Below, piece by piece: positions 1-8,708 of a stretch of DNA of 64,000 nt. Source of the stretch: a bacterium. GTDB lineage: Bacteria; Patescibacteriota; Dojkabacteria; JAKAPS01; JAJZLI01. The notes below the pieces were generated by a model. The model saw only the letters and a list, made by a program, of their open reading frames with translations, was not told the origin of the DNA and did not search any database. The position numbers and the translations under genes are program-made. The stretch is taken from contig JAJYFR010000003.1 of assembly GCA_021785355.1 (NCBI GenBank), forward strand, positions 21,509 to 85,508. Direction: 5' to 3'. Position 1 is the stretch's first letter. Each line of letters starts with the position of its first letter.

Positions 1-705
1 CCTACCAATCAGCCTACTTGTAAATTGTACCCTATGTTTTTCATCCAAAACATTCTGATTTTTAAGATGAGTGACAAGTTCGTTAAAGAAAGAAGAGATT
101 TCTCTATAGAATTGTTCATTTAGAGGATGTATATCAAAACTTTTCCAAAGAATTTCATGAATATTACCTTTATTTGAGTAATCAAAATCTTGAAACCAAT
201 TATTAAAAATCTCTTTTTGTGTATGATTTAGTTTTTGACTAAGCTCTAAAGTACGTATCTTATATTCTTTACTTAAAACAATTATCAATTTATCAGCTTC
301 TTCTGGAATTATAAAATCTATCCCAATAGGTCTATTCTTATTAAATTTTTCATCTTCAAAATTCTTTGTTAATGCAGTAATTTTTAAAATATTATTTTTA
401 TTGACTTTGGATACCCAAAAAAGATTGAACTCAATATTTCTATCATTATCTTGAGCTAGAACATATGTTGCTTTTCTATCTGAATATCCTGGAGCATTCA
501 GTGTCCAACTTATATTTCTTGTTTCTTTAGATAAACTAGGAAAATATAATAATGTTTTTGAAATATCAGTAATACCAAAAATAGAAACTATCTCTTTTGC
601 TATTTCAACTGCTGAATCAAAAGAATGATTTTCATTTGCAAATTTAAGTGCTTCATTTATTCTATCAAAATGTGTTGAATTTTTGTTATTTGTTTGAACT
701 GACAT
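1..705 (-). CDS. Partial CDS running off the window start, product unknown. It is the distal gene of the PLD/SNF2 operon and a possible defence partner protein.
   Basis: An ATG at 705 on the minus strand overlaps the stop of the upstream 686..4168 gene by 20 nt. The frame stays open to position 1 and translates as MSVQTNNKNSTHFDRINEALKFANENHSFDSAVEIAKEIV... No motif I can name with confidence. Confidence 0.4.
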   Translation of the reverse strand, partial: MSVQTNNKNSTHFDRINEALKFANENHSFDSAVEIAKEIVSIFGITDISKTLLYFPSLSKETRNISWTLNAPGYSDRKATYVLAQDNDRNIEFNLFWVSKVNKNNILKITALTKNFEDEKFNKNRPIGIDFIIPEEADKLIIVLSKEYKIRTLELSQKLNHTQKEIFNNWFQDFDYSNKGNIHEILWKSFDIHPLNEQFYREISSFFNELVTHLKNQNVLDEKHRVQFTSRLIGR

Positions 706-3700
706 AGTATAATATTTGTTTTACATTATTTGGTAAAATAGGTTCTTCTTTATTATCTTTAATATCTCTGGCTATAATTATAAGTTTTGTCAAATCATCA
801 TAGTACGGTTTGTTTTCTTTTTGTGATCTTGAAATCTTTCTTACTAATTTTATAATATTTCTTTTTTCATGGTAATTTTTTGTATTAAGCGCCTCATCAA
901 CTATTTCAATATCCTCAATATCATAATTTAATTCACTCATCAATCTAAGTAATTTTATATTCAAACCTTTTGCACTCTCTTCAGCTGGTGTAAAAGTATA
1001 TGCTTCTATATCACTTGCTTTATTAACAATAGACTCTTTCTTTACAGATATATTATCTTTAAATCTTTCATTATCTGTCACTTCTGTTTTCAATATATTT
1101 AATGCTTCTAAATAAGGAATCAAATGTATATTAGCACTATCTTTGTCCATCCCAATAAATTGAGGATATAAATATGTATCATCTTTCAAAAGATGACTTA
1201 ACACCATTACAGGAAAATAGTTTGTTTTATAAGAAGGTATTACTCCCCACTTTCCAAGTGGAATATCATAAATTGACTTTTTATATTCTATTGGAAAATG
1301 ATCACTCTTTTCAAATGATTTAAGATCTAATATAAAATCATCTTCTGCCATAAGTAAGTCACTCTTTTCTTCAATAGTCGTTAACGCTTGAATCCTTTTT
1401 TGCTCGTCATCACTATATAAATCTTTAATACTCTCCACAAAATCAATTGGATTTTCTACTTCACCTAAAACAGATTGATCACTTCCTATTGTATTACTTA
1501 TCATCTCAATCTTACTTTCTAATCTTTTTACTAGTTTAAGATATAGTTCAAGCTTAAATTCAGGCCTCATATTATATATATATACATTCTCATAGTTAGA
1601 TCCTATTCTATTAATTCTTCCATTTCTTTGGATCATTCTTACTGGATTCCAATGTAGGTCATAATTAATAATTATCCCAGCATCTTGTAAATTTTGTCCT
1701 TCTGATAATATGTCTGTAGAAAATAAATACCTAATTTCATCATTATTTAAAGTATAACCCTTTGCTATAGGAGAAAATCGTTTAGCTAAAATCTCCGAAT
1801 CATTCCTGTTTTTTGTTGAAACGAAAGCAGTATTACTTTCATTTAAAAGTCCATTTGATAATTTGAATATATTTTTCTCCAAATAATTTATAGTGTCAGC
1901 AAAATATGAGAATATAAGAACTTTTTCTCCAGCCAATTTTTCTTTATCAAGCTTTTTTAAAAGATCAATTAATGCATTTAACTTTGAATCCGGATTTTTA
2001 AAAAGTTTTAACTCTTTTAGAATAATATCTATAAGTTCAAATTCTTTTTTTATATCGTTAGAGAATGCTTCTAGATTATATTTAGTATTATTTACTTTAT
2101 CTAATACCATATCACTTTCTTCACCTATTATACTTGGATCATCAAGAGATTCATCTATATCTATCATCTTTAAAGCATCTTTTAAAACTTCTAAATCTTT
2201 TACTCCTACTATCTCATGATGTTTTTCTAAAGCTTCATTAAATTGTTCTAATTTTTCCTTATAGTTTCTCAAAGATTTTGATATTGCCTCAACTGATGAC
2301 TCCATTCTCTTAAGATACATTGTCCTGAAAATTCCATATATCCCTCTTTGTTGCTGTAAATCCCTACTTTCGTCTCCAGTTAATTTCAAAGCTTTGATTT
2401 CTTCAACTGTTTTACCGTAATATTTCCTTTGATATAATCTCCATCTATATGGGATAAATCCTAGCATTAAAATAAGTTGAAAAATGAAATAAATGGGAGA
2501 TTCATTTAATAAAGTTTTAATTTTAGTAGAATCTTCAGTAAGCTTATCTAGCTGATCTAATGGATGTTTTAAATCTGTACATTTATCAACAATCTCTTGA
2601 GGATCATATTGATAAAGTTTTTCTACATCAAAAGATACTTTTGCATCAAGATTAAGTATCTTATTATTTAATGATGATTCAAAATTATATTGATAATTTT
2701 CAGGTATTGCTTTAGGAAAACTTTTCTTTTCCTCATCTATAGTTAAGTGTCCATATTCTTTTTCTATACCTTGTCTAGTTCTCCTTACAACTACGCTCCT
2801 AATAATAGGAGCCATTACTTGTTTTATATTCTCATAATCAATTTCTTCTTCCTGTTTACTTTGTCTAGTAATTTTTCTTTGTAAATTCTCAATTGCTTGA
2901 ACAAAATCTACTTGTGATGTTTGACCAGATTTACTATCTCTTATAGTAATTTGTATGATATCTCCTCTTCCTCTCGTTCCTAATAGAATTTGATTAGTAA
3001 GATCCTTAAGTTCATTATTTATAGGAGTAGCTGTTAGGAGTAAAACATGTGCTTGTTTATTATTTTTTATCCAATCCAAAAGTTGTTCATATCTCTTTCC
3101 ATTAGATTTTCTCAAGTTATGAGATTCATCAATAACGAATAATGAGACTGAAGCAATATTATCTAAATTTCTTTCCTTTTGTATTGCTTCACTATTTTGT
3201 AAGGTTATTGGCGTTACATTAGTTAGTCCCTGACCAGTAAGTTCACTTTCCCATTGATCAGTTAAAGATTTTGGACATATAATTGCTACTCTTTTTCTTC
3301 CTTCTTTACTATCAATATATTGTTTAATTACTCCAATCGCAGTTATAGTTTTTCCTAATCCTACTGAATCAGAAAGCATTGCAGTTTTAAATTTATTAAG
3401 TTTGCGTATAAGTTGCTGAACATTCCTTTTTTGAAATTCCATTAATTCGTGTCTTGAATGACTAGTTTCTACTAATTCTACTTCTTCTAACTCTTCTTTA
3501 TATAACTCATACAATGTTTTTATATACATCTCATATGGACTAAATAACATATCTCCAACAGGAGAGTACTCAAGAATTTCCGTAAAATGATGATTCCATT
3601 CTTCTGACTCATTCCAAAATTCATCAAACCAATATAAATGTCCAACCTCTTGGTTATCATTTTTAGGTTCATAGGTTACTATTCTTGAATCATTTTCAAG

Positions 3701-4168
3701 TGCATTAAGCTCAGTATTCTTTGTAAGACCATTTCCTGTAAAATTAGATGATCCTATAATTCCAATCGCATTAGAAGATTCAAAATTACCAAATATATAA
3801 CACTTTGCATGTAGAAATGACTTTTTATATACCCTCACCTCAAGAACTCCTTTTGAGATAAGATCTTTTATTGAGATAATTGTTTCTTTTAATTTTTCAT
3901 TCGGAGTGAGAGCTTCCAAATCTTTGAATATATCTCTTTCTGGATAATCTGGTTCAGGATCATTTAATTGATGACGTGGAATTAAAGGTTCTCTTCCTAT
4001 TAATAAACGGATTTTTTTATAACCTTTTATTTGCTCTAAAAGCATATCAATACTTTGAAGATCCCAATAACCAGTAGCTATCGACAGTTCATCATACTCA
4101 GAAGAAATATTTTTGATTGTATCTAAAAGTAAAACTCTATTGTTATCAATAATTTTAACTATTTTCAT
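686..4168 (-). CDS. Fusion protein with an N-terminal PLD-like (phospholipase D / NucT-type) nuclease domain and a C-terminal SNF2-family helicase.
   Basis: PLD HxK..GSxN motif: LHAKCYIFGNFESSNAIGIIGSSNFTG near residue 120. SNF2/DExH helicase motifs: motif I LSDSVGLGKTITAIGV, motif II VIDESHNLR, motif III LLLTATPINN, motif VI QRNGRINRIGS. 1160 aa. Confidence 0.8.
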   Translation of the reverse strand: MKIVKIIDNNRVLLLDTIKNISSEYDELSIATGYWDLQSIDMLLEQIKGYKKIRLLIGREPLIPRHQLNDPEPDYPERDIFKDLEALTPNEKLKETIISIKDLISKGVLEVRVYKKSFLHAKCYIFGNFESSNAIGIIGSSNFTGNGLTKNTELNALENDSRIVTYEPKNDNQEVGHLYWFDEFWNESEEWNHHFTEILEYSPVGDMLFSPYEMYIKTLYELYKEELEEVELVETSHSRHELMEFQKRNVQQLIRKLNKFKTAMLSDSVGLGKTITAIGVIKQYIDSKEGRKRVAIICPKSLTDQWESELTGQGLTNVTPITLQNSEAIQKERNLDNIASVSLFVIDESHNLRKSNGKRYEQLLDWIKNNKQAHVLLLTATPINNELKDLTNQILLGTRGRGDIIQITIRDSKSGQTSQVDFVQAIENLQRKITRQSKQEEEIDYENIKQVMAPIIRSVVVRRTRQGIEKEYGHLTIDEEKKSFPKAIPENYQYNFESSLNNKILNLDAKVSFDVEKLYQYDPQEIVDKCTDLKHPLDQLDKLTEDSTKIKTLLNESPIYFIFQLILMLGFIPYRWRLYQRKYYGKTVEEIKALKLTGDESRDLQQQRGIYGIFRTMYLKRMESSVEAISKSLRNYKEKLEQFNEALEKHHEIVGVKDLEVLKDALKMIDIDESLDDPSIIGEESDMVLDKVNNTKYNLEAFSNDIKKEFELIDIILKELKLFKNPDSKLNALIDLLKKLDKEKLAGEKVLIFSYFADTINYLEKNIFKLSNGLLNESNTAFVSTKNRNDSEILAKRFSPIAKGYTLNNDEIRYLFSTDILSEGQNLQDAGIIINYDLHWNPVRMIQRNGRINRIGSNYENVYIYNMRPEFKLELYLKLVKRLESKIEMISNTIGSDQSVLGEVENPIDFVESIKDLYSDDEQKRIQALTTIEEKSDLLMAEDDFILDLKSFEKSDHFPIEYKKSIYDIPLGKWGVIPSYKTNYFPVMVLSHLLKDDTYLYPQFIGMDKDSANIHLIPYLEALNILKTEVTDNERFKDNISVKKESIVNKASDIEAYTFTPAEESAKGLNIKLLRLMSELNYDIEDIEIVDEALNTKNYHEKRNIIKLVRKISRSQKENKPYYDDLTKLIIIARDIKDNKEEPILPNNVKQILYYVSSNK

Positions 4169-4172
4169 ATTC

Positions 4173-4391
4173 TTATTTATTATTAACTCCTTTTAATAAA
4201 CTGTCAATTGGTATTTTTAAAGCTCCTGATATTTTTAATAATTTTTCAATACTTGGGTTTTTAATAACTCCATTCTCAAGTTTGGTAATAGTTGTAAATG
4301 GAACAGTAGAACTTTTAGCCAAATCTTCTTGAGTTAAACTTTGTTCTAATCGTATTTTTTTAATATTTTTTCCTATAATACTTAAATCCAT
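4173..4391 (-). CDS. XRE-family (Cro/cI-type) helix-turn-helix transcriptional regulator.
   Basis: 72 aa; HTH region LTQEDLAKSSTVPFTTITKLENG. Sits immediately upstream of the PLD/SNF2 gene on the same strand with a 4-nt gap. Confidence 0.75.
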   Translation of the reverse strand: MDLSIIGKNIKKIRLEQSLTQEDLAKSSTVPFTTITKLENGVIKNPSIEKLLKISGALKIPIDSLLKGVNNK

Positions 4392-4394
4392 ATA

Positions 4395-4429
4395 TTGATA
4401 TCAATCAAGTGTTTATATGATGTTAACAT
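4395..4429. promoter_or_regulatory. Two perfect 10-bp palindromes in the divergent intergenic region, candidate operator sites for the XRE regulator.
   Basis: TTGATATCAA at 4395-4404 and ATGTTAACAT at 4420-4429. Both are perfect palindromes between divergently oriented genes (4391 minus, 4474 plus). Confidence 0.3.
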
Positions 4430-4473
4430 ATTATTAGTTTTGAATAAAGATATATAGTATAATTAACTTAATC

Positions 4474-5052
4474 ATGTGGATAATCATTATAGCCTTTTTA
4501 GCATTAATAGTGTCCTATATAACATTTATTTATACTAGAAAATCATACGAAATATCTGTTTTGCCTTGTATAAAAATATCTTTTTTGAAGCAAGACAGTT
4601 CAGTCTTATGTTATGTAAAGAATATAGGGAGTGGCGTCGCTTTTGATATTGAAATACAAGAACAAATGATGAGATTTGAAAAGGAAAATGTATCTTTTCA
4701 TTTAGAATTAATATTGAAAGATAACAACATGCTTGATATAGGACAAAAATCACTTTTAGATGTTAAAGCGTATGAAATTATTAATGATAAGAAGCAAGTT
4801 AGTCTTCAAGATTTTGTATCAGGAATATTAAAAGAATCTGATTCAAAATTTTTAGTAACATTTAAAAATATTGGAGGAAAAAGATATTATTCAATAATAA
4901 ATTATAAAATAAAAGATGATCATGATTATATAAATATTTCTCCTCCAAAAAAGCTTAGTATTTTCAATGCAATTTTGGATAGTAGAGATAAAACAGATCT
5001 AATAAATATTTATATTGCTTATAAGAAAAGAATTTTTTTATTATCCAAATAA
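4474..5052 (+). CDS. Hypothetical membrane-anchored protein.
   Basis: 192 aa; N-terminal transmembrane helix MWIIIIAFLALIVSYITFIY followed by a soluble domain. No recognisable motif. Confidence 0.4.
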   Translation: MWIIIIAFLALIVSYITFIYTRKSYEISVLPCIKISFLKQDSSVLCYVKNIGSGVAFDIEIQEQMMRFEKENVSFHLELILKDNNMLDIGQKSLLDVKAYEIINDKKQVSLQDFVSGILKESDSKFLVTFKNIGGKRYYSIINYKIKDDHDYINISPPKKLSIFNAILDSRDKTDLINIYIAYKKRIFLLSK

Positions 5053-5100
5053 TAAAAACACTAAACTGTAACTTAACTAATAAATTTATTGAACTAAAAC

Positions 5101-5412
5101 ATGGACTTAAAAACATTTATAAAAAAATCTATTGTTGATATAACAAGTGGAGTAGTAGCATCAAACAATACACCCAATAGTTCTTACATGGTAAGATTAC
5201 AAGATTCTAGTGAAGGATATAATATAGAATTTGATATTGCAGTCATAGTAAAAGAAACTGACAATAACTCCAAAGATAAAAATATAGGAGCACAAATTAG
5301 TGTCTTATCTATGGGGTTGAAAGCTGGAATAAAAAGTGATAAAGATCATAGTAATGAAAATAGCACTGTAACAAGAATTAAATTCAAAGTGGAAGCGATA
5401 AAGACAAGATGA
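5101..5412 (+). CDS. Hypothetical protein.
   Basis: 103-aa ORF. Its stop overlaps the start of the next ORF (ATGA overlap at 5409-5412), suggesting translational coupling. Confidence 0.35.
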   Translation: MDLKTFIKKSIVDITSGVVASNNTPNSSYMVRLQDSSEGYNIEFDIAVIVKETDNNSKDKNIGAQISVLSMGLKAGIKSDKDHSNENSTVTRIKFKVEAIKTR

Positions 5413-6119
5413 GAATGAAGATTCAAAAATATGCAGACTTTGGGACTTCTTCACCATGGTTTGCAAGAATAAATGATATAAACTATATATTAGAACCGAT
5501 TTTTTTATTTAGAACACGACCATCATCTGATGATATAAAAAATGCAGAGATAAAAAAAGAGAAACTGAATAATATAAAATTTGAAGTCATAAAAGAACTA
5601 GGCAAAGCATATTTGAGTTTAGATACATTAAAAAATAAATCGAAAAATTTACCCCAACTCAATATTGAAAATGAATACAATAATATTTATGAATCTTTAT
5701 GGAGGGCATATAAGGATAGATCTTTGTTATTTATAAAAAATCTAGATTACGATATAGGATTCATGTTTAAAAATGATAAAGATTTCAGAAAGGATGGTTT
5801 AATTTTCATAAAAAATAATAATGTAGATGATAAATTCCTAGATCTTATTGAGGAAAAAAGGATTACCTGGCAGAACGAATTATCTGATTTCAGGAATAAT
5901 TTTTTAGATCACTTAAAAACAGATAAATCTCTTCAATACCAACATTTTTACACAATAAAAAACGTAGAGTTAGTCTTTGATCATGTATGGAAGTCCATAG
6001 AAGATATATGGATAATCCTTATTAAAAGTTATTATCCTTTAAATTTTGATTTAAGGGAAATACCTAAAGATAAAAGAGACAAAAATAACCCTATAAAATT
6101 TGAAATTATCAATATTTAA
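5409..6119 (+). CDS. Hypothetical protein.
   Basis: 236-aa ORF coupled to the preceding ORF; no recognisable motif. Confidence 0.4.
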   Translation: MRMKIQKYADFGTSSPWFARINDINYILEPIFLFRTRPSSDDIKNAEIKKEKLNNIKFEVIKELGKAYLSLDTLKNKSKNLPQLNIENEYNNIYESLWRAYKDRSLLFIKNLDYDIGFMFKNDKDFRKDGLIFIKNNNVDDKFLDLIEEKRITWQNELSDFRNNFLDHLKTDKSLQYQHFYTIKNVELVFDHVWKSIEDIWIILIKSYYPLNFDLREIPKDKRDKNNPIKFEIINI

Positions 6120-6246
6120 CAAATACTTGTTAATAATACAAATTAAGCATCAATTTTCTAATTAAGCATACTCTAATTTATCCCTTTACAAAGCTATTTT
6201 GCACCTACTATTTCAAACTATTGACATTACTTTCATATAGTTATAT

Positions 6247-6266
6247 ATTATCCTTATAGGGATAAT
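6247..6266. promoter_or_regulatory. Inverted repeat (7-bp arms, 6-nt spacer) downstream of a sigma70-like promoter, ahead of the recombinase operon.
   Basis: ATTATCC-ttatag-GGATAAT at 6247-6266. TTGACA at 6221-6226, 17-nt spacer, TATATT at 6244-6249. Confidence 0.3.
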
Positions 6267-6291
6267 ATATTAGTTAATAAGGTATAAGAAT

Positions 6292-6465
6292 ATGGCAAGA
6301 TTAAAGGGCAGTAAAAACAAAAAATCAAGTTCAAACGATCGTCCTATCACATCAAATTTATCAACAGAGGAAAGAATCAGATTTCTAGCAAATATCATAG
6401 TATATAGAATCATAGAGGACCAGAATACAGATAGCATTTTATTTAAGAACTTAAATTTAAAATAG
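6292..6465 (+). CDS. Small basic ORF (57 aa) translationally coupled to the serine recombinase gene. Possible recombination directionality factor or excisionase-like accessory protein.
   Basis: ATG at 6292, stop TAG at 6463-6465, recombinase ATG at 6468. Translates as MARLKGSKNKKSSSNDRPITSNLSTEERIRFLANIIVYRIIEDQNTDSILFKNLNLK. AAGGTA ribosome-binding site upstream. Below the 60-aa cutoff of the supplied ORF track. Confidence 0.3.
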   Translation: MARLKGSKNKKSSSNDRPITSNLSTEERIRFLANIIVYRIIEDQNTDSILFKNLNLK

Positions 6466-6467
6466 AT

Positions 6468-8207
6468 ATGGACAATATAAGAATGGAAAACGCTGTAGCT
6501 GCAATTAGAGTATCATCTGTAAAACAAGGAACTGACGGAGATTCTCCTGAAGCTCAAAGAGAACAAATAGAAAGATTTGCTGAAACTCATAATATCAATA
6601 TAAGGAAGATATTTGTTTTTCTAGAATCTGGATCTAAAGAAAAACAACCAGTACAAGAAGCAATTGATTATTGTAAGAATCCTAAGAATAATATTCAACT
6701 TTTTATCATTAAATCCATAGACAGATTCACTAGAGGTGGATCATATTTTTATGATGGTCTTAAAATGCAATTAGACCAAAAAGGAGTAAAACTTATTGAT
6801 ATTTATGGTGTTATAGGAACTCATGATGTAAATACTCTAGAACATCTTGGAGTATCATATAACTGGAGTGTCTACTCCCCTACTAAAAAAGCAGAGATGC
6901 TTGAGGCAGAAAGAGCAAAAGATGAGATGAGAGATATCATGTCAAGAATGATTGGAGCTCAAATAAGGTATATAAGGATGGGATATTGGGTACACAGAGC
7001 CCCATTCGGATATATGAATGAAAAGGTTGAAACATCTAATGGTAAAAGAGTTCTGTTAAAACCAGAACCAACAGAATCTGTATGGATAATTAAAATGTTT
7101 GAGTTAAGAGCAAGAGGCACATTAGATGACCATCAAATTGTAGATACCATAAATTCCATGGGATTCAAAACAAGAATTGAACTTAAAAGAAATCCGAAAA
7201 ACAGAACTCAGATTATAGGACAAAAAGGAGGAAACAAACTTACGTTGAAAGCATTATGGAGATTTATAGAAAATCCTATCTATGCAGGTATACATGTAGG
7301 AAGTTGGAATAAAGGTTTCCCTATAAAAGGCAGATATGCGGGATTAGTTTCATTTGATATCTTTAATAAAGCAAATAAAGGAAAAATCACAATAAGAGAA
7401 GATAATGGTGAGATAAAAGTATACAAAAGAGAACCAAAAGATTATCTAGTTCAAAAAGGAGTCAAAAACTCTGAATTTCCATATAAAAAATATGTTTTGT
7501 GTCCTCATTGTATGAAACCACTGTATGGGAGTGCATCTCGTGGCAAACTAGGTAAATATTATCCTGCTTATCATTGTAATAAGAGAGGTCACTATTTTAG
7601 AGTTCCCAAAAAAGATTTTGATGCTACAATATCAAAGTTTATAAAAAACATAAATCTATCACAAGAATATATTGACGCACTTCAAAAAGTAGTATTAGAG
7701 GAATGGGATAAAAGAAGTAATGAGATCAACAAGGATAAAGTAAACATTGATCAAAGAATCAGTGAACTTAAAATGCAATCAAAGGCAACTGTAGATAAGA
7801 TCAAATACCTTCAATCTGAAGTTGCTATAAAATATCTAGAGGCTGATTTAATAGAGAACGAGAATGAAATTGAAAAGTTAATGGTCAAAAAGGAAAAAGA
7901 GACAAAAGAACCAGTAAATATGGTCAAGGTTATGGAGTACATAAAATACTTTCTGGAACACCTTGATAATTTACTGCTACAAAGCGATAATCCTATAGAT
8001 AGAGCTACCTATTTTAGTGCTATTTTCAACCATGCTCCAACCTATCAAGAATTGATTTCTGGAACACCAGATTTAGCTGATTGTATCAGTCTAAACAAGG
8101 TCTTTATACAGGGTCGTGGACAGCTATCTGGGATGCAGGGACTCGAACCCCAAACTTCAGGACCAAAACCTGGCGTGATGCCATTTCACCACATCCCAAT
8201 ATATTGA
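6468..8207 (+). CDS. Large serine recombinase (resolvase/invertase N-terminal catalytic domain, recombinase domain, zinc ribbon, coiled coil).
   Basis: Catalytic motif AAIRVSSVKQ (nucleophile Ser). Zinc-ribbon cysteines CPHCMKPLYG...YHCNKRGH. Coiled-coil region. The last ~30 codons read through antisense tRNA-Gln sequence, so the true C-terminus and attachment site lie at the gene/tRNA junction. Confidence 0.85.
   Translation: MDNIRMENAVAAIRVSSVKQGTDGDSPEAQREQIERFAETHNINIRKIFVFLESGSKEKQPVQEAIDYCKNPKNNIQLFIIKSIDRFTRGGSYFYDGLKMQLDQKGVKLIDIYGVIGTHDVNTLEHLGVSYNWSVYSPTKKAEMLEAERAKDEMRDIMSRMIGAQIRYIRMGYWVHRAPFGYMNEKVETSNGKRVLLKPEPTESVWIIKMFELRARGTLDDHQIVDTINSMGFKTRIELKRNPKNRTQIIGQKGGNKLTLKALWRFIENPIYAGIHVGSWNKGFPIKGRYAGLVSFDIFNKANKGKITIREDNGEIKVYKREPKDYLVQKGVKNSEFPYKKYVLCPHCMKPLYGSASRGKLGKYYPAYHCNKRGHYFRVPKKDFDATISKFIKNINLSQEYIDALQKVVLEEWDKRSNEINKDKVNIDQRISELKMQSKATVDKIKYLQSEVAIKYLEADLIENENEIEKLMVKKEKETKEPVNMVKVMEYIKYFLEHLDNLLLQSDNPIDRATYFSAIFNHAPTYQELISGTPDLADCISLNKVFIQGRGQLSGMQGLEPQTSGPKPGVMPFHHIPIY
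8118..8188 (-). tRNA. tRNA-Gln (anticodon TTG), no encoded CCA.
   Basis: Reverse complement TGGGATGTGGTGAAATGGCATCACGCCAGGTTTTGGTCCTGAAGTTTGGGGTTCGAGTCCCTGCATCCCAG. U1:A72 pair and G73 discriminator typical of bacterial tRNA-Gln. Anticodon loop TTTTGGT. Confidence 0.7.
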
Positions 8208-8209
8208 AA

Positions 8210-8285
8210 TGGAGCGGAAAACGGGATTCAAACCCGCGACCTTATCCTTGGCAAGGATATGCTCTATCAACTGAGCTACTTCCGC
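8210..8285 (-). tRNA. tRNA-Gly (anticodon GCC), CCA encoded.
   Basis: Reverse complement GCGGAAGTAGCTCAGTTGATAGAGCATATCCTTGCCAAGGATAAGGTCGCGGGTTTGAATCCCGTTTTCCGCTCCA. Anticodon loop TTGCCAA. Confidence 0.8.
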
Positions 8286-8293
8286 ATAAAACT

Positions 8294-8366
8294 TGCCACA
8301 AGTGGGGGTCGAACCCACGACACAAGGCTCTTCAGGCCTCTGCTCTACCAACTGAGCTACCGTGGC
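8294..8366 (-). tRNA. tRNA-Phe (anticodon GAA).
   Basis: Reverse complement GCCACGGTAGCTCAGTTGGTAGAGCAGAGGCCTGAAGAGCCTTGTGTCGTGGGTTCGACCCCCACTTGTGGCA. Anticodon loop CTGAAGA. Confidence 0.8.
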
Positions 8367-8376
8367 ATATTACAAT

Positions 8377-8448
8377 GGGCAGTACAGGGATCGGACCTGT
8401 GACATCTACGGTGTAAACGTAGCGCTCTACCAGCTGAGCTAACTGCCC
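8377..8448 (-). tRNA. tRNA-Val (anticodon TAC).
   Basis: Reverse complement GGGCAGTTAGCTCAGCTGGTAGAGCGCTACGTTTACACCGTAGATGTCACAGGTCCGATCCCTGTACTGCCCA. Anticodon loop TTTACAC. Confidence 0.8.
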
Positions 8449-8472
8449 TTTTTTATATATAAAGGTCTTATT

Positions 8473-8557
8473 TTTTTTAGAATGGGCAGAAGAGGAGTTG
8501 AACCTCCACACCAATAAATTAGGCACAACCACCTCAAGGTTGCGTGTCTACCATTCC
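8473..8557 (-). tRNA. tRNA-Leu (anticodon GAG), class II with a long variable arm.
   Basis: Reverse complement GGGCAGGTGGTGGAATGGTAGACACGCAACCTTGAGGTGGTTG...GGAGGTTCAACTCCTCTTCTGCCCA. Anticodon loop TTGAGGT. Confidence 0.75.
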
Positions 8558-8622
8558 ACCACCTGCCCAATTTATGTAAGACATCGTATGATATTATATT
8601 GTGTAATGAGGATTTTTGCAAA

Positions 8623-8708
8623 TGCTAGAAAGAGGATTCGAACCTCCACATCTATAATAAGATACAATGTTCTGAACATTGCGTGTCTACCATTTCACCA
8701 TTCTAGCT
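8623..8708 (-). tRNA. tRNA-Leu (anticodon CAG), class II with a long variable arm.
   Basis: Reverse complement GCTAGAATGGTGAAATGGTAGACACGCAATGTTCAGAACATTG...GGAGGTTCGAATCCTCTTTCTAGCA. Anticodon loop TTCAGAA. Confidence 0.75.

What the first reader, a model, noticed from the sequence alone, without database searches (positions are those of the whole stretch)
1..8207. Serine-recombinase island at tRNA-Gln carrying a regulator, a nuclease-helicase fusion and unannotatable cargo
A 579-aa large serine recombinase gene (6468..8207) reads directly into the antisense strand of tRNA-Gln, the first of six clustered tRNAs. Its last ~30 codons are encoded by tRNA sequence, so the integration junction is at the gene's 3' end. 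Everything to the left looks like island cargo. There is a 57-aa ORF coupled to the recombinase (a possible recombination directionality factor). There are three co-oriented genes with no recognisable domains (4474..6119, one with a transmembrane anchor, two translationally coupled). A divergently transcribed XRE regulator precedes a 1160-aa PLD-nuclease/SNF2-helicase gene. A further overlapping gene leaves the window. The regulator plus nuclease-helicase plus unknown partner arrangement on a tRNA-integrated element is what phage-defence islands typically look like. I cannot match the set to a named system from sequence alone.
Basis: partly seen in the sequence, partly recalled or inferred. 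Interest (0 to 1): 0.8.

Follow-up and report, generated by a model that had tools for sequence, protein, structure and literature searches.

The report
Serine-integrase defence island at tRNA-Gln
This is the right-hand third of a roughly 24-kb mobile island full of anti-phage genes in an ultra-small (Patescibacteria) bacterium. Its integrase belongs to a large, apparently undescribed family that always inserts at the very end of a tRNA gene and reads into that tRNA backwards.

Summary
A large serine recombinase (LSR) gene (6468..8207) reads antisense through tRNA-Gln (8127..8199), and the listed ORFs are all there.

The window is from a Patescibacteria MAG (GCA_027424915.1). The island runs about 16 kb beyond the left edge of the window. 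A 9-bp direct repeat, TCGTGGACA, lies 5 nt past the tRNA 3' end (8114..8122). Its only other copy is at window -16089, just before chromosomal genes. That gives an island of about 24.2 kb.

Cargo:
- a C-protein, an HKD/PLD-SNF2 enzyme and an MmeI/Eco57I-type N6A methyltransferase, forming a restriction-modification-like module;
- an EcoRI-like methylase with a GmrSD/HNH nuclease;
- a frameshifted PDC-S19 gene;
- one "unannotatable" gene that is a HEPN-fold protein.

The LSR family matters more than the cargo. It has more than 1,600 homologues in 331 species genomes, nearly all Patescibacteria. In 52 of 63 testable loci the ORF ends inside an antisense tRNA. A conserved 55-57-aa ORF usually lies just upstream.

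Near-identical elements (96% identity) sit at divergent tRNAs (75-78%) with unrelated flanks, and homology breaks at the tRNA 3' terminus. So the tRNA is the host target and the integrase tail is host-encoded.

No empty site and no excised circle were found.

Verdict: a real island, and a new variant of a known kind.

The parts
1..705 (-). First 235 codons of a 1101-aa MmeI/Eco57I-family gamma-class N6-adenine DNA methyltransferase with a TaqI_C specificity domain. The gene continues left of the window and overlaps the stop of the PLD-SNF2 gene by 20 nt.
   Evidence: The full gene is seen in L001/L015. PADLOC REase_MTase_IIG 2.5e-160. Pfam Eco57I 2.9e-37, TaqI_C 2.6e-14, MmeI_Mtase, weak MmeI_hel; no nuclease domain detected. 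DPACGSGAF and NPPY motifs are visible in the translation.
686..4168 (-). 1160-aa fusion of an N-terminal HKD/PLD-family nuclease domain with an SNF2-type ATPase. It is the predicted ATP-driven restriction subunit.
   Evidence: Pfam PLDc_2, RE_NgoFVII, SNF2-rel_dom, Helicase_C. Best PADLOC hit 'C3a139 HKD+Snf2' 5.2e-51, then DrmD-like. NCBIfam DrmD and phospholipD_antiphage hits fall far below their cut-offs. PDB sequence hits are SNF2 remodellers and RapA. GLGKT, DESH and QRNGRINR motifs are present in the translation.
4173..4391 (-). 72-aa XRE/HTH_3 regulator, 4 nt upstream of the PLD-SNF2 gene on the same strand. It is probably a restriction-modification controller (C) protein.
   Evidence: Pfam HTH_3 3.2e-15. 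PADLOC HTH_VI 3.4e-13 and Control_protein 2.9e-9.
4392..4473 (.). Divergent intergenic region between the C-protein operon and the plus-strand trio. It contains the palindrome TTGATATCAA (4395..4404) directly before the C-protein ATG, a possible operator.
   Evidence: Read directly from the sequence. Function is inferred only.
4474..5052 (+). 192-aa protein with an N-terminal transmembrane segment. No family match.
   Evidence: No hits in Pfam, NCBIfam or PHROGs. PADLOC gave only a marginal ZorB1|ZorB (MotB) match (E 0.0064), which I treat as chance. No relative in 81 related loci.
5101..5412 (+). 103-aa protein, translationally coupled (ATGA overlap) to the HEPN-fold gene. It is a candidate partner or antitoxin.
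   Evidence: No family hits. Not homologous to the small ORF upstream of a HEPN-family homologue elsewhere.
5409..6119 (+). 236-aa HEPN-fold protein with a conserved R162-N163-x4-H168 motif. It is a predicted RNase-type toxin or abortive-infection effector.
6221..6270 (+). Best promoter-like site of the region (TTGACA-17-TATATT, 6221..6249). A 14-nt inverted repeat (6243..6256 / 6257..6270) overlaps it. This is the probable regulated promoter of the small-ORF/recombinase operon.
   Evidence: Consensus matches only; function is inferred.
6292..6465 (+). 57-aa basic protein, 2 nt upstream of the recombinase gene. It is a conserved partner of this recombinase family and a candidate accessory or recombination directionality factor.
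   Evidence: tblastn finds a homologous small ORF directly upstream of the recombinase in at least 53 of 77 related loci. No family match in any library.
6468..8207 (+). 579-aa large serine recombinase (574 aa if the second Met is used). The conserved body ends near 8100. The last 27-28 codons are host-derived (antisense tRNA-Gln).
   Evidence: Pfam Resolvase 1.4e-9, weak Recombinase. NCBIfam XisF 1.5e-13, below cut-off. PHROG 95 integrase 9e-39. R14, S16, Q20, D85-R86, R89 and the C345/C348/C370 zinc-ribbon cysteines are invariant in alignment A2.
8114..8122 (+). TCGTGGACA, the candidate common core of the recombinase-proximal attachment junction, 5-13 nt past the tRNA-Gln 3' end. The second copy, in the same orientation, is at window -16089..-16081 (L015 17356..17364).
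   Evidence: The 9-mer is unique in the 64-kb window and in the 20-kb L015, against 0.02-0.03 expected. It is the best information-weighted match of the junction to the whole 27 kb upstream. None of 500 shuffles of the 371-nt boundary region reach it.
8127..8199 (-). tRNA-Gln(UUG), intact. It is the host target (attB side), and its 3' end faces the island.
   Evidence: ARAGORN. Family pairs show the tRNA body is host DNA.
8210..8707 (-). Five further host tRNA genes (Gly, Phe, Val, Leu, Leu) transcribed towards the island. No terminator-like site separates tRNA-Gln from the recombinase 3' end.

Best explanation
Window 1..8122 is the recombinase-proximal third of an integrated genomic island of about 24.2 kb in a Patescibacteria (CPR) chromosome.

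**How it got there.** A large serine recombinase (LSR) inserted the island by site-specific recombination at a site that abuts the 3' terminus of tRNA-Gln(UUG). The crossover is placed in or next to the 9-bp core TCGTGGACA. The tRNA stays intact and remains host DNA. Because the element's own attachment site (attP) lies inside the 3' end of the recombinase ORF, integration replaces the ORF's last codons. In the integrated state the ORF runs on through antisense tRNA. In the predicted circular form it would end ...GRGQYSNPN*.

**The recombination module.** It consists of the conserved 57-aa ORF followed by the LSR. It appears to be driven by one operator-covered promoter.

**The cargo is defence.**
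- (i) A C-protein-controlled restriction-modification-like module. An MmeI/Eco57I-type N6A methyltransferase with a specificity domain would mark self DNA. An HKD-nuclease/SNF2-ATPase would translocate along unmodified DNA and cut it.
- (ii) An EcoRI-like methylase plus a GmrSD_N/HNH nuclease.
- (iii) A decayed PDC-S19 gene.
- (iv) A small module of a membrane protein, a 103-aa protein and a HEPN-fold predicted RNase.
- (v) About ten genes of unknown function.

**What is shown.** Gene content, domain assignments, the tRNA overlap, the family-wide tRNA association, and the host origin of the tRNA in related elements.

**What is inferred.** The exact crossover, the left boundary, current mobility, regulation, and every biochemical activity.
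For: Anatomy.

The island extends left to a boundary next to AspRS and NUDIX genes.

Unique 9-bp direct repeat at both ends.

LSR catalytic and zinc-ribbon residues are invariant, and the protein matches integrase family PHROG 95.

Family evidence:
- more than 1,600 homologues at 59-68% identity;
- 331 species genomes, nearly all Patescibacteria;
- 52 of 63 complete loci have an antisense tRNA of ten different identities under the ORF end.

Evidence that related elements moved between hosts:
- L022/L045: recombinase 3' 600 nt 96% identical, tRNA 78%, flanks unrelated even by tblastx.
- L024/L025: 95.7%, 75%, none.
- L072/L074 and L071/L092/L066: homology ends at ...TGGTG(A), the last nt of tRNA-Lys.

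Cargo differs between family members. Defence annotations.
Against: - No empty attB and no circular attP junction was found for this element. All contigs carrying the flanking genes either hold the island or end in the tRNA cluster. DNA pattern scans of GTDB genomes and JGI metagenomes were empty.
- The left boundary rests on one 9-bp repeat. A comparable 12-nt repeat in the WWE3 relative falls inside a gene end and may be chance, and a family-wide repeat scan was no better than its reverse-complement control.
- G+C content does not distinguish the island from the chromosome.
- About 11 of 63 family loci show no tRNA after the recombinase.
- No transfer, replication or phage genes were recognised in this island.
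- Logan contig ends near window -16130 are unexplained.
Confidence: 0.8

Rival explanations
1. The tRNA next to the recombinase belongs to the element. In that case the true attachment site lies beyond the tRNA 5' end, for example at CAATATATT(T)GA between tRNA-Gln and tRNA-Gly, and the island brings its own tRNA-Gln.
For: [quoted passage not shown] A second weak direct repeat, CAATATATT, occurs at window 8197 and -16141, and Logan contigs from both sides end at -16130 and -16135.
Against: Inside those blocks the tRNA is only 75-78% identical, with compensatory stem changes, while the adjoining recombinase end is 96% identical. So the tRNA is not co-inherited with the element. Three other pairs break at the tRNA 3' terminus. 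CAATATATT is AT-rich, and by my own estimate several copies are expected by chance in 64 kb.
Confidence: 0.07
2. The recombinase is a domesticated, vertically inherited chromosomal gene of Patescibacteria, for example a developmental excisase or resolvase like XisF or SpoIVCA. The region to its left is then ordinary variable chromosome, not a mobile element.
For: Conservation is unusually high (59-68% identity across CPR classes). The best NCBIfam hit is XisF. No empty site was found. The island shows no compositional contrast with the chromosome.
Against: Near-identical copies sit in unrelated chromosomal contexts at different tRNAs. Target tRNA identity varies across ten amino-acid specificities. 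Neighbouring cargo is not conserved. Some relatives carry TraG/DUF87-type and Replic_Relax genes. One MAG holds two copies on different contigs (L072/L077).
Confidence: 0.06
3. The region is a prophage or phage satellite that uses a serine integrase.
For: Serine integrases are typical of temperate phages, and PHROG 95 is an integrase family.
Against: No capsid, terminase, tail or lysis gene was found in about 24 kb. Of the ten island proteins scanned against PHROGs, only the integrase matched. No relative of the recombinase exists in IMG/VR. The closest phage integrases are 24% identical or less.
Confidence: 0.03

Closest known systems
Large serine recombinase (serine integrase) integrative elements, e.g. 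phiC31, Bxb1, A118, TP901-1, SCCmec Ccr, Vibrio PLE Int
   Same: N-terminal resolvase-type catalytic domain with the RVS..Q serine motif, a recombinase domain, and a Cys-rich zinc ribbon followed by a coiled-coil segment. A short common core replaces a long identity block. The integrase gene sits at the element end. A small adjacent ORF could be a directionality factor.
   Different: At most 24% identical to any phage or plasmid LSR in the collections searched, and no PDB sequence match even with a profile. The target is the 3' terminus of tRNA genes, which to my knowledge is the habit of tyrosine integrases. The ORF spans the crossover, so its C-terminus changes on integration. The family is essentially confined to Patescibacteria.
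tRNA-targeting genomic islands with tyrosine integrases (Islander-type islands, tycheposons)
   Same: Integration at the 3' side of a tRNA gene with the tRNA kept functional. The integrase is adjacent to the intact tRNA. Cargo is variable and often defensive. Tycheposons include a minority with LSRs (bioRxiv 10.1101/2020.12.28.424599).
   Different: There is no displaced partial tRNA copy at the far end, only a 9-bp core. The enzyme class differs. The crossover lies at or just beyond the tRNA terminus rather than inside the tRNA body.
Integration-dependent immunity systems of mycobacteriophages, where attP lies inside a gene so that integration changes the protein's C-terminus (summarised in PMC8092301)
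   Same: attP lies within the 3' end of an element gene, so the integrated and free forms encode proteins with different C-termini, partly host-encoded.
   Different: There the gene affected is the repressor and the integrase is a tyrosine recombinase, and a regulatory role has been shown. Here the gene affected is the integrase itself, and no functional consequence is shown. The tails are not conserved in length or sequence.
ATP-dependent restriction-modification relatives: Type III, Type ISP, CglI/NgoAVII, DISARM (DrmD/DrmC/DrmMI), BREX-related 'BR type-2' systems (PMC12839542)
   Same: An N6-adenine methyltransferase is paired with an SF2/SNF2 motor and a nuclease (HKD/PLD as in NgoAVII, DrmC and BR type-2). 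The module is under a C-protein-like regulator.
   Different: It is a two-gene core with nuclease and motor fused. There is no DrmA/DrmB (DISARM), no DUF499 (BR systems), no PglZ/BrxC (BREX) and no Res-type PD-(D/E)XK domain. The methyltransferase resembles Type IIG enzymes, but no nuclease domain was detected in it.
HEPN toxins (HEPN-MNT toxin-antitoxin pairs, RnlA/LsoA, AbiA C-terminal domain)
   Different: There is no sequence-level match to any Pfam HEPN family. An extra ~110-residue N-terminal helical region and a C-terminal beta hairpin are present. The partner is not an MNT by sequence.

Membership tests
Large serine recombinase (serine integrase) | Resolvase-type catalytic domain with the nucleophilic serine and conserved Arg/Asp residues | tested here: met
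   Pfam Resolvase 1.4e-9, residues 10-113. R14, S16, Q20, D85, R86 and R89 are invariant in 22 sequences.
Large serine recombinase (serine integrase) | C-terminal recombinase domain plus zinc ribbon with an embedded coiled coil | tested here: inconclusive
   Pfam Recombinase scores 18.5 bits, below the 21.1 cut-off in this protein, though PF07508 is precomputed for several homologues. C345, C348 and C370 are invariant. Residues 409-481 show a coiled-coil-like match. Pfam gave no zinc-ribbon hit and PDB gave no match. PHROG 95 integrase covers residues 3-499 at 9e-39.
Large serine recombinase (serine integrase) | Catalyses attP x attB integration with a short central crossover, and excision needs a directionality factor | not testable with these tools
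   The only evidence is a 9-bp repeat at both ends and a conserved small ORF.
Integrated mobile genomic island | The same element is found in different genomic contexts, or an empty site exists | tested here: inconclusive
   For this exact island, no empty site was found. For close family members, the feature is met: 96% identical elements at divergent tRNAs with unrelated flanks.
DISARM | Core genes drmA (helicase), drmB (DUF1998) and drmC (PLD) | tested here: not met
   No DrmA or DrmB match among the island proteins. The DrmD NCBIfam score is 161.7 against a cut-off of 610.
BREX and BREX-related (BR) systems | PglZ and BrxC (BREX), or the DUF499 ATPase (BR systems, PMC12839542) | tested here: not met
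   No PglZ, BrxC or DUF499 hit in Pfam or PADLOC for any island protein. Only PglX-like similarity of the methyltransferase was seen.
Type IIG restriction-modification enzyme (MmeI-like) | Nuclease, methyltransferase and specificity domains in one polypeptide | tested here: inconclusive
   The methyltransferase, TaqI_C specificity domain and a weak MmeI helical spacer are present. Residues 1-100 match nothing and no nuclease domain is detected.
Type II restriction-modification system (second module, outside the window) | Adjacent methyltransferase and endonuclease genes | tested here: met
   EcoRI_methylase 7.6e-123 and MTase_II 9.4e-120. The adjacent 363-aa protein scores GmrSD_N + HNH and REase_II 2e-131.
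HEPN domain proteins | HEPN four-helix fold with an Rx4-6H motif | tested here: met

The most novel reading that the evidence does not exclude
This recombinase may represent a previously undescribed, Patescibacteria-wide class of serine integrases that use the 3' terminus of tRNA genes as attB and keep attP inside their own ORF. Under this reading, integration swaps the integrase C-terminus for a host, tRNA-antisense-encoded tail. It also places the gene head-on against an unterminated tRNA operon. Together these would act as an integration-dependent switch on integrase stability, activity or expression, analogous to integration-dependent immunity in mycobacteriophages. These elements would also be a main vehicle for defence genes in CPR bacteria.
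Probability: 0.2. Interest if true: 0.75.

Novelty: new variant of a known kind. Interest (0 to 1): 0.55.

Why it matters
Patescibacteria make up a large share of bacterial diversity. They have tiny genomes, are mostly uncultured, and are hard to manipulate genetically. How they acquire genes and defend themselves is poorly known.

A single, highly conserved serine-integrase family in hundreds of their species, tied to tRNA 3' ends and carrying variable cargo, would account for part of their gene flow. It would also offer ready-made integrases with predictable, conserved attB sites (tRNA ends) for engineering these organisms.

It also runs against the usual rule that tRNA genes are targets of tyrosine integrases rather than serine integrases.

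The cargo itself is of ordinary interest: a compact HKD-SNF2 plus Type IIG-like methyltransferase module, and a new HEPN family.

Tried and rejected
Only the tRNA itself matches in all fetched loci.
- **Empty site through the right-flank gene (SBP) and the left-flank gene (AspRS).** Every contig holds the island or stops in the tRNA cluster or near the left junction.
- **Predicted junction patterns in GTDB genomes and JGI metagenomes.** No match.
- **Synteny in a more distant AspRS relative.** Not conserved.
- **Family-wide search for short direct repeats within 10 kb upstream.** No better than the reverse-complement control. The WWE3 12-mer lies inside a gene end.
- **tRNA-like remnant at the left junction.** Rfam finds nothing and ARAGORN finds nothing. 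The loose dyad seen by eye there is not detected by the repeat finder.
- **L002, an apparent second chromosomal context for the island.** The join falls exactly at the start of the universal D-arm sequence TAGCTCAGTTGGTAGAGC of tRNA-Phe. I treat it as a probable assembly chimera or tRNA-mediated recombination, not as evidence of transposition.
- **Single-sequence AlphaFold of the 236-aa protein.** Useless, pLDDT 39.
- **Foldseek against PDB.** Nothing significant. The afdb50 library was unavailable.
- **Pfam at lenient thresholds on unknown cargo.** Only sub-threshold hints: a hydrolase-like 225-aa protein and a Zn-peptidase-like 224-aa protein.
- **Prophage reading.** Rejected.
- **DISARM, BREX and BR membership.** Rejected for lack of core genes.
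Full report
**1. Observation**

A 579-aa ORF (6468..8207, plus strand) has a resolvase-type N-terminus (Pfam Resolvase 1.4e-9). It runs through the whole of tRNA-Gln(UUG) (8127..8199, minus strand) and stops in the 10-nt spacer before tRNA-Gly.

Five more tRNAs follow on the minus strand. Upstream lie a 57-aa ORF (6292..6465), three co-oriented ORFs (4474..6119) and, on the other strand, an XRE gene (4173..4391). The XRE gene directly precedes a 1160-aa PLD + SNF2 gene (686..4168), which overlaps a gene that leaves the window.

**2. Where the window comes from and how far the island goes**

An exact-protein look-up places the window on contig DAIBWQ010000002.1 of MAG GCA_027424915.1. The same sequence occurs in about 20 ENA and Logan contigs. 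Homologues of its AspRS are annotated as Patescibacteria, Paceibacteria or Minisyncoccia, so the host is a CPR bacterium with about 26% G+C.

Two further look-ups extended the sequence 19 kb to the left. The truncated gene at the window edge is a 1101-aa MmeI/Eco57I-type methyltransferase. Beyond it, in order, lie:
- a frameshifted DUF3644/PDC-S19 gene;
- a second C-protein-like HTH with a 444-aa ORF;
- about ten ORFs with no family match;
- an EcoRI-like methylase with a GmrSD_N/HNH nuclease.

After that come a 371-nt intergenic region, two small ORFs, AspRS and NUDIX, which are chromosomal.

**3. Boundaries**

There is no second copy of the tRNA-Gln 3' end, and none is expected for a serine integrase.

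The 9-mer TCGTGGACA lies 5-13 nt past the tRNA 3' end (8114..8122). It occurs exactly once more in all the sequence fetched, in the same orientation, inside the left boundary intergenic region (L015 17356..17364, equal to window -16089..-16081). The expected count is 0.02-0.03 per sequence. It is the best information-weighted match of the junction region to the entire 27 kb upstream. None of 500 shuffles of the boundary region reach it.

Taking this repeat as the common core gives an island of about 24.2 kb. In the predicted circular form the recombinase ORF would end ...GRGQYSNPN*.

This boundary is a single-repeat inference. I found no empty site and no circular junction.

**4. The recombinase family**

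This is the most informative result.
- The protein has more than 1,600 homologues. The best 120 are all 59-68% identical over the full length.
- A scan of one genome per species found relatives in 331 genomes. By record title most of the 80 fetched loci are Microgenomates, Saccharibacteria, WWE3, Levy-, Roizman- or Shapirobacteria. About 19 are labelled Gammaproteobacteria and a few others carry other names (Pseudomonadales, Methanobacterium, Methylococcaceae). I read those labels as mis-binning, but I did not test that.
- The alignment shows conserved catalytic and zinc-ribbon residues. It also shows C-termini that all degenerate into '..LA..GFEP..', the antisense translation of a tRNA acceptor/T-arm.
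- Of the 80 fetched loci, 63 are not cut by a contig end. In 52 of these an antisense tRNA lies under the ORF end. The tRNAs are Gln, Glu, Lys, Arg, Ser, Asn, Val, Asp, Ile or Trp.
- The 57-aa ORF has a recognisable homologue directly upstream of the recombinase in at least 53 of 77 loci.
- Cargo is not shared between loci. The WWE3 RAAC2 relative carries a TraG/DUF87-type ATPase and a Replic_Relax gene.

**5. Which side of the junction is host DNA**

In two pairs, near-identical elements sit at different tRNA genes:
- L022/L045: the last 600 nt of the recombinase are 96% identical, the tRNA 78%.
- L024/L025: 95.7% and 75%.

In both pairs the sequence beyond the tRNA is unrelated, even by tblastx.

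In three further comparisons a tRNA-Lys locus is set against relatives without a tRNA (L072/L074, L071/L092, L071/L066). Identity is perfect up to ...TGGTG(A), the last nucleotides of the tRNA, and then vanishes.

So these elements move between hosts, the tRNA is the host target, and the crossover lies at the tRNA 3' terminus. The part of the recombinase ORF beyond that point is host-encoded. Its length and sequence are not conserved, so I do not assume it has a function.

**6. Regulation (inferred)**

The best promoter-like site of the region (TTGACA-17-TATATT, 6221..6249) precedes the small ORF. A 14-nt inverted repeat overlaps it. No terminator-like site separates the leftward-transcribed tRNA operon from the recombinase 3' end, so antisense read-through is possible.

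A 10-bp palindrome sits immediately before the C-protein ATG.

**7. Cargo**

*PLD-SNF2 module.* The PLD-SNF2 protein best matches PADLOC's 'HKD+Snf2' model (5e-51). It matches DrmD only partially and scores far below NCBIfam cut-offs. Its partner methyltransferase matches Type IIG models (2.5e-160) and carries a TaqI_C specificity domain, but no nuclease domain was detected. The 72-aa HTH matches restriction-modification control proteins.

I read this as a compact ATP-dependent restriction-modification-like module. It is not DISARM, BREX or a DUF499-centred BREX-related system (PMC12839542), because their core genes are absent.

*Still unassigned.* The co-translated 103-aa protein and the 192-aa membrane protein have no assignment.

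**8. Comparison with what is known**

The enzyme is a large serine recombinase, but it is distant from characterised ones. It is at most 24% identical to phage integrases, has no relative in IMG/VR, and has no PDB sequence match.

Targeting of tRNA 3' ends is, to my knowledge, the hallmark of tyrosine integrases. The Islander abstract in the results says as much (PMC4383910). The papers I searched on Patescibacteria genomic islands (PMC12455944) and on tRNA-targeting elements that include some LSRs (tycheposons) do not describe this family.

An attP inside a gene, so that integration changes the protein's C-terminus, is known from mycobacteriophage integration-dependent immunity (PMC8092301). 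There the gene is the repressor, not the integrase.

**9. Verdict**

The island is one member of a large, apparently undescribed, CPR-specific family of tRNA-end-targeting serine-integrase elements. Its cargo is mostly recognisable defence.

I rate it a new variant of a known kind, with interest 0.55. The main gaps are the lack of direct evidence that this copy is still mobile and the single-repeat basis of the left boundary.

Noticed in passing
L006 11860..12268 (ENA ERZ27237515 k141_966208), corresponding to window ~8071..8385: A second version of the locus. The SBP gene, both tRNA-Leu genes and most of tRNA-Val are identical to the window. Then come a tRNA-Val 3' acceptor strand that no longer pairs with its 5' strand, an 89-nt spacer, and Phe/Gly/Gln genes plus a recombinase 3' end about 10% diverged from the window. 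This could be a sister strain, an allelic replacement through tRNA homology, or an assembly hybrid.
   Followed up: partly
L002 5700..5810 (ENA ERZ27237515 k141_1210408): The island plus tRNA-Gln, tRNA-Gly and nucleotides 9-76 of tRNA-Phe are joined to an unrelated tRNA-Ala/LigA context. The break falls exactly at the start of the conserved D-arm sequence. It is probably a chimeric assembly or recombination between tRNA genes.
   Followed up: partly
window -16135..-16130 (L101 12257..12262): Logan contigs from the chromosome side (L103, L104) and from the island side (L016) all end within 6 nt of each other, 41 nt left of the 9-bp repeat, in several samples. A weak AT-rich repeat CAATATATT(T)GA occurs here and at window 8197..8207. 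This remains unexplained.
   Followed up: partly
L015 18497..19815 (left chromosomal flank, outside the window): The AspRS gene is called as 389 aa plus a separate 33-aa ORF. The 389-aa product lacks the N-terminal anticodon-binding domain that all 437-aa homologues have. This may be a frameshift, a sequencing error or an interrupted gene.
   Followed up: no
L015 3902..5001 (outside the window): The DUF3644/PDC-S19 candidate defence gene is split into overlapping 109-aa and 269-aa ORFs, so it is apparently a frameshifted pseudogene. An intact DUF3644 gene is also carried by the related WWE3 element.
   Followed up: partly
L015 12830..14859 (outside the window): Two consecutive pairs each consist of a 75-aa ORF followed by a ~225-aa ORF. 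The larger proteins give sub-threshold hits to alpha/beta-hydrolase/Tle3-like and Zn-metallopeptidase families respectively. They may be paired toxin/immunity-like modules.
   Followed up: no
L031, L039, L055, L066, L068, L074, L084, L092, L098, L030 (family loci): About one in six family members has no detectable tRNA after the recombinase. In some (L092, L031) the sequence beyond the junction looks like further island cargo (SEC-C, HNH-like proteins). These could be attP-type junctions of free or tandem elements, or secondary sites.
   Followed up: partly
L101 4143..7025 (chromosome left of AspRS): The left chromosomal flank holds PIN, HicA and IS200-type Y1 transposase genes, so it is itself a variable region.
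   Followed up: no
L050 2544..5165 and 58..1404: Another family member (Patescibacteria PATE-7, at tRNA-Glu) carries a distantly related PLD-SNF2 plus methyltransferase pair (24-39% identity). This restriction-modification-like module therefore recurs on these elements.
   Followed up: no
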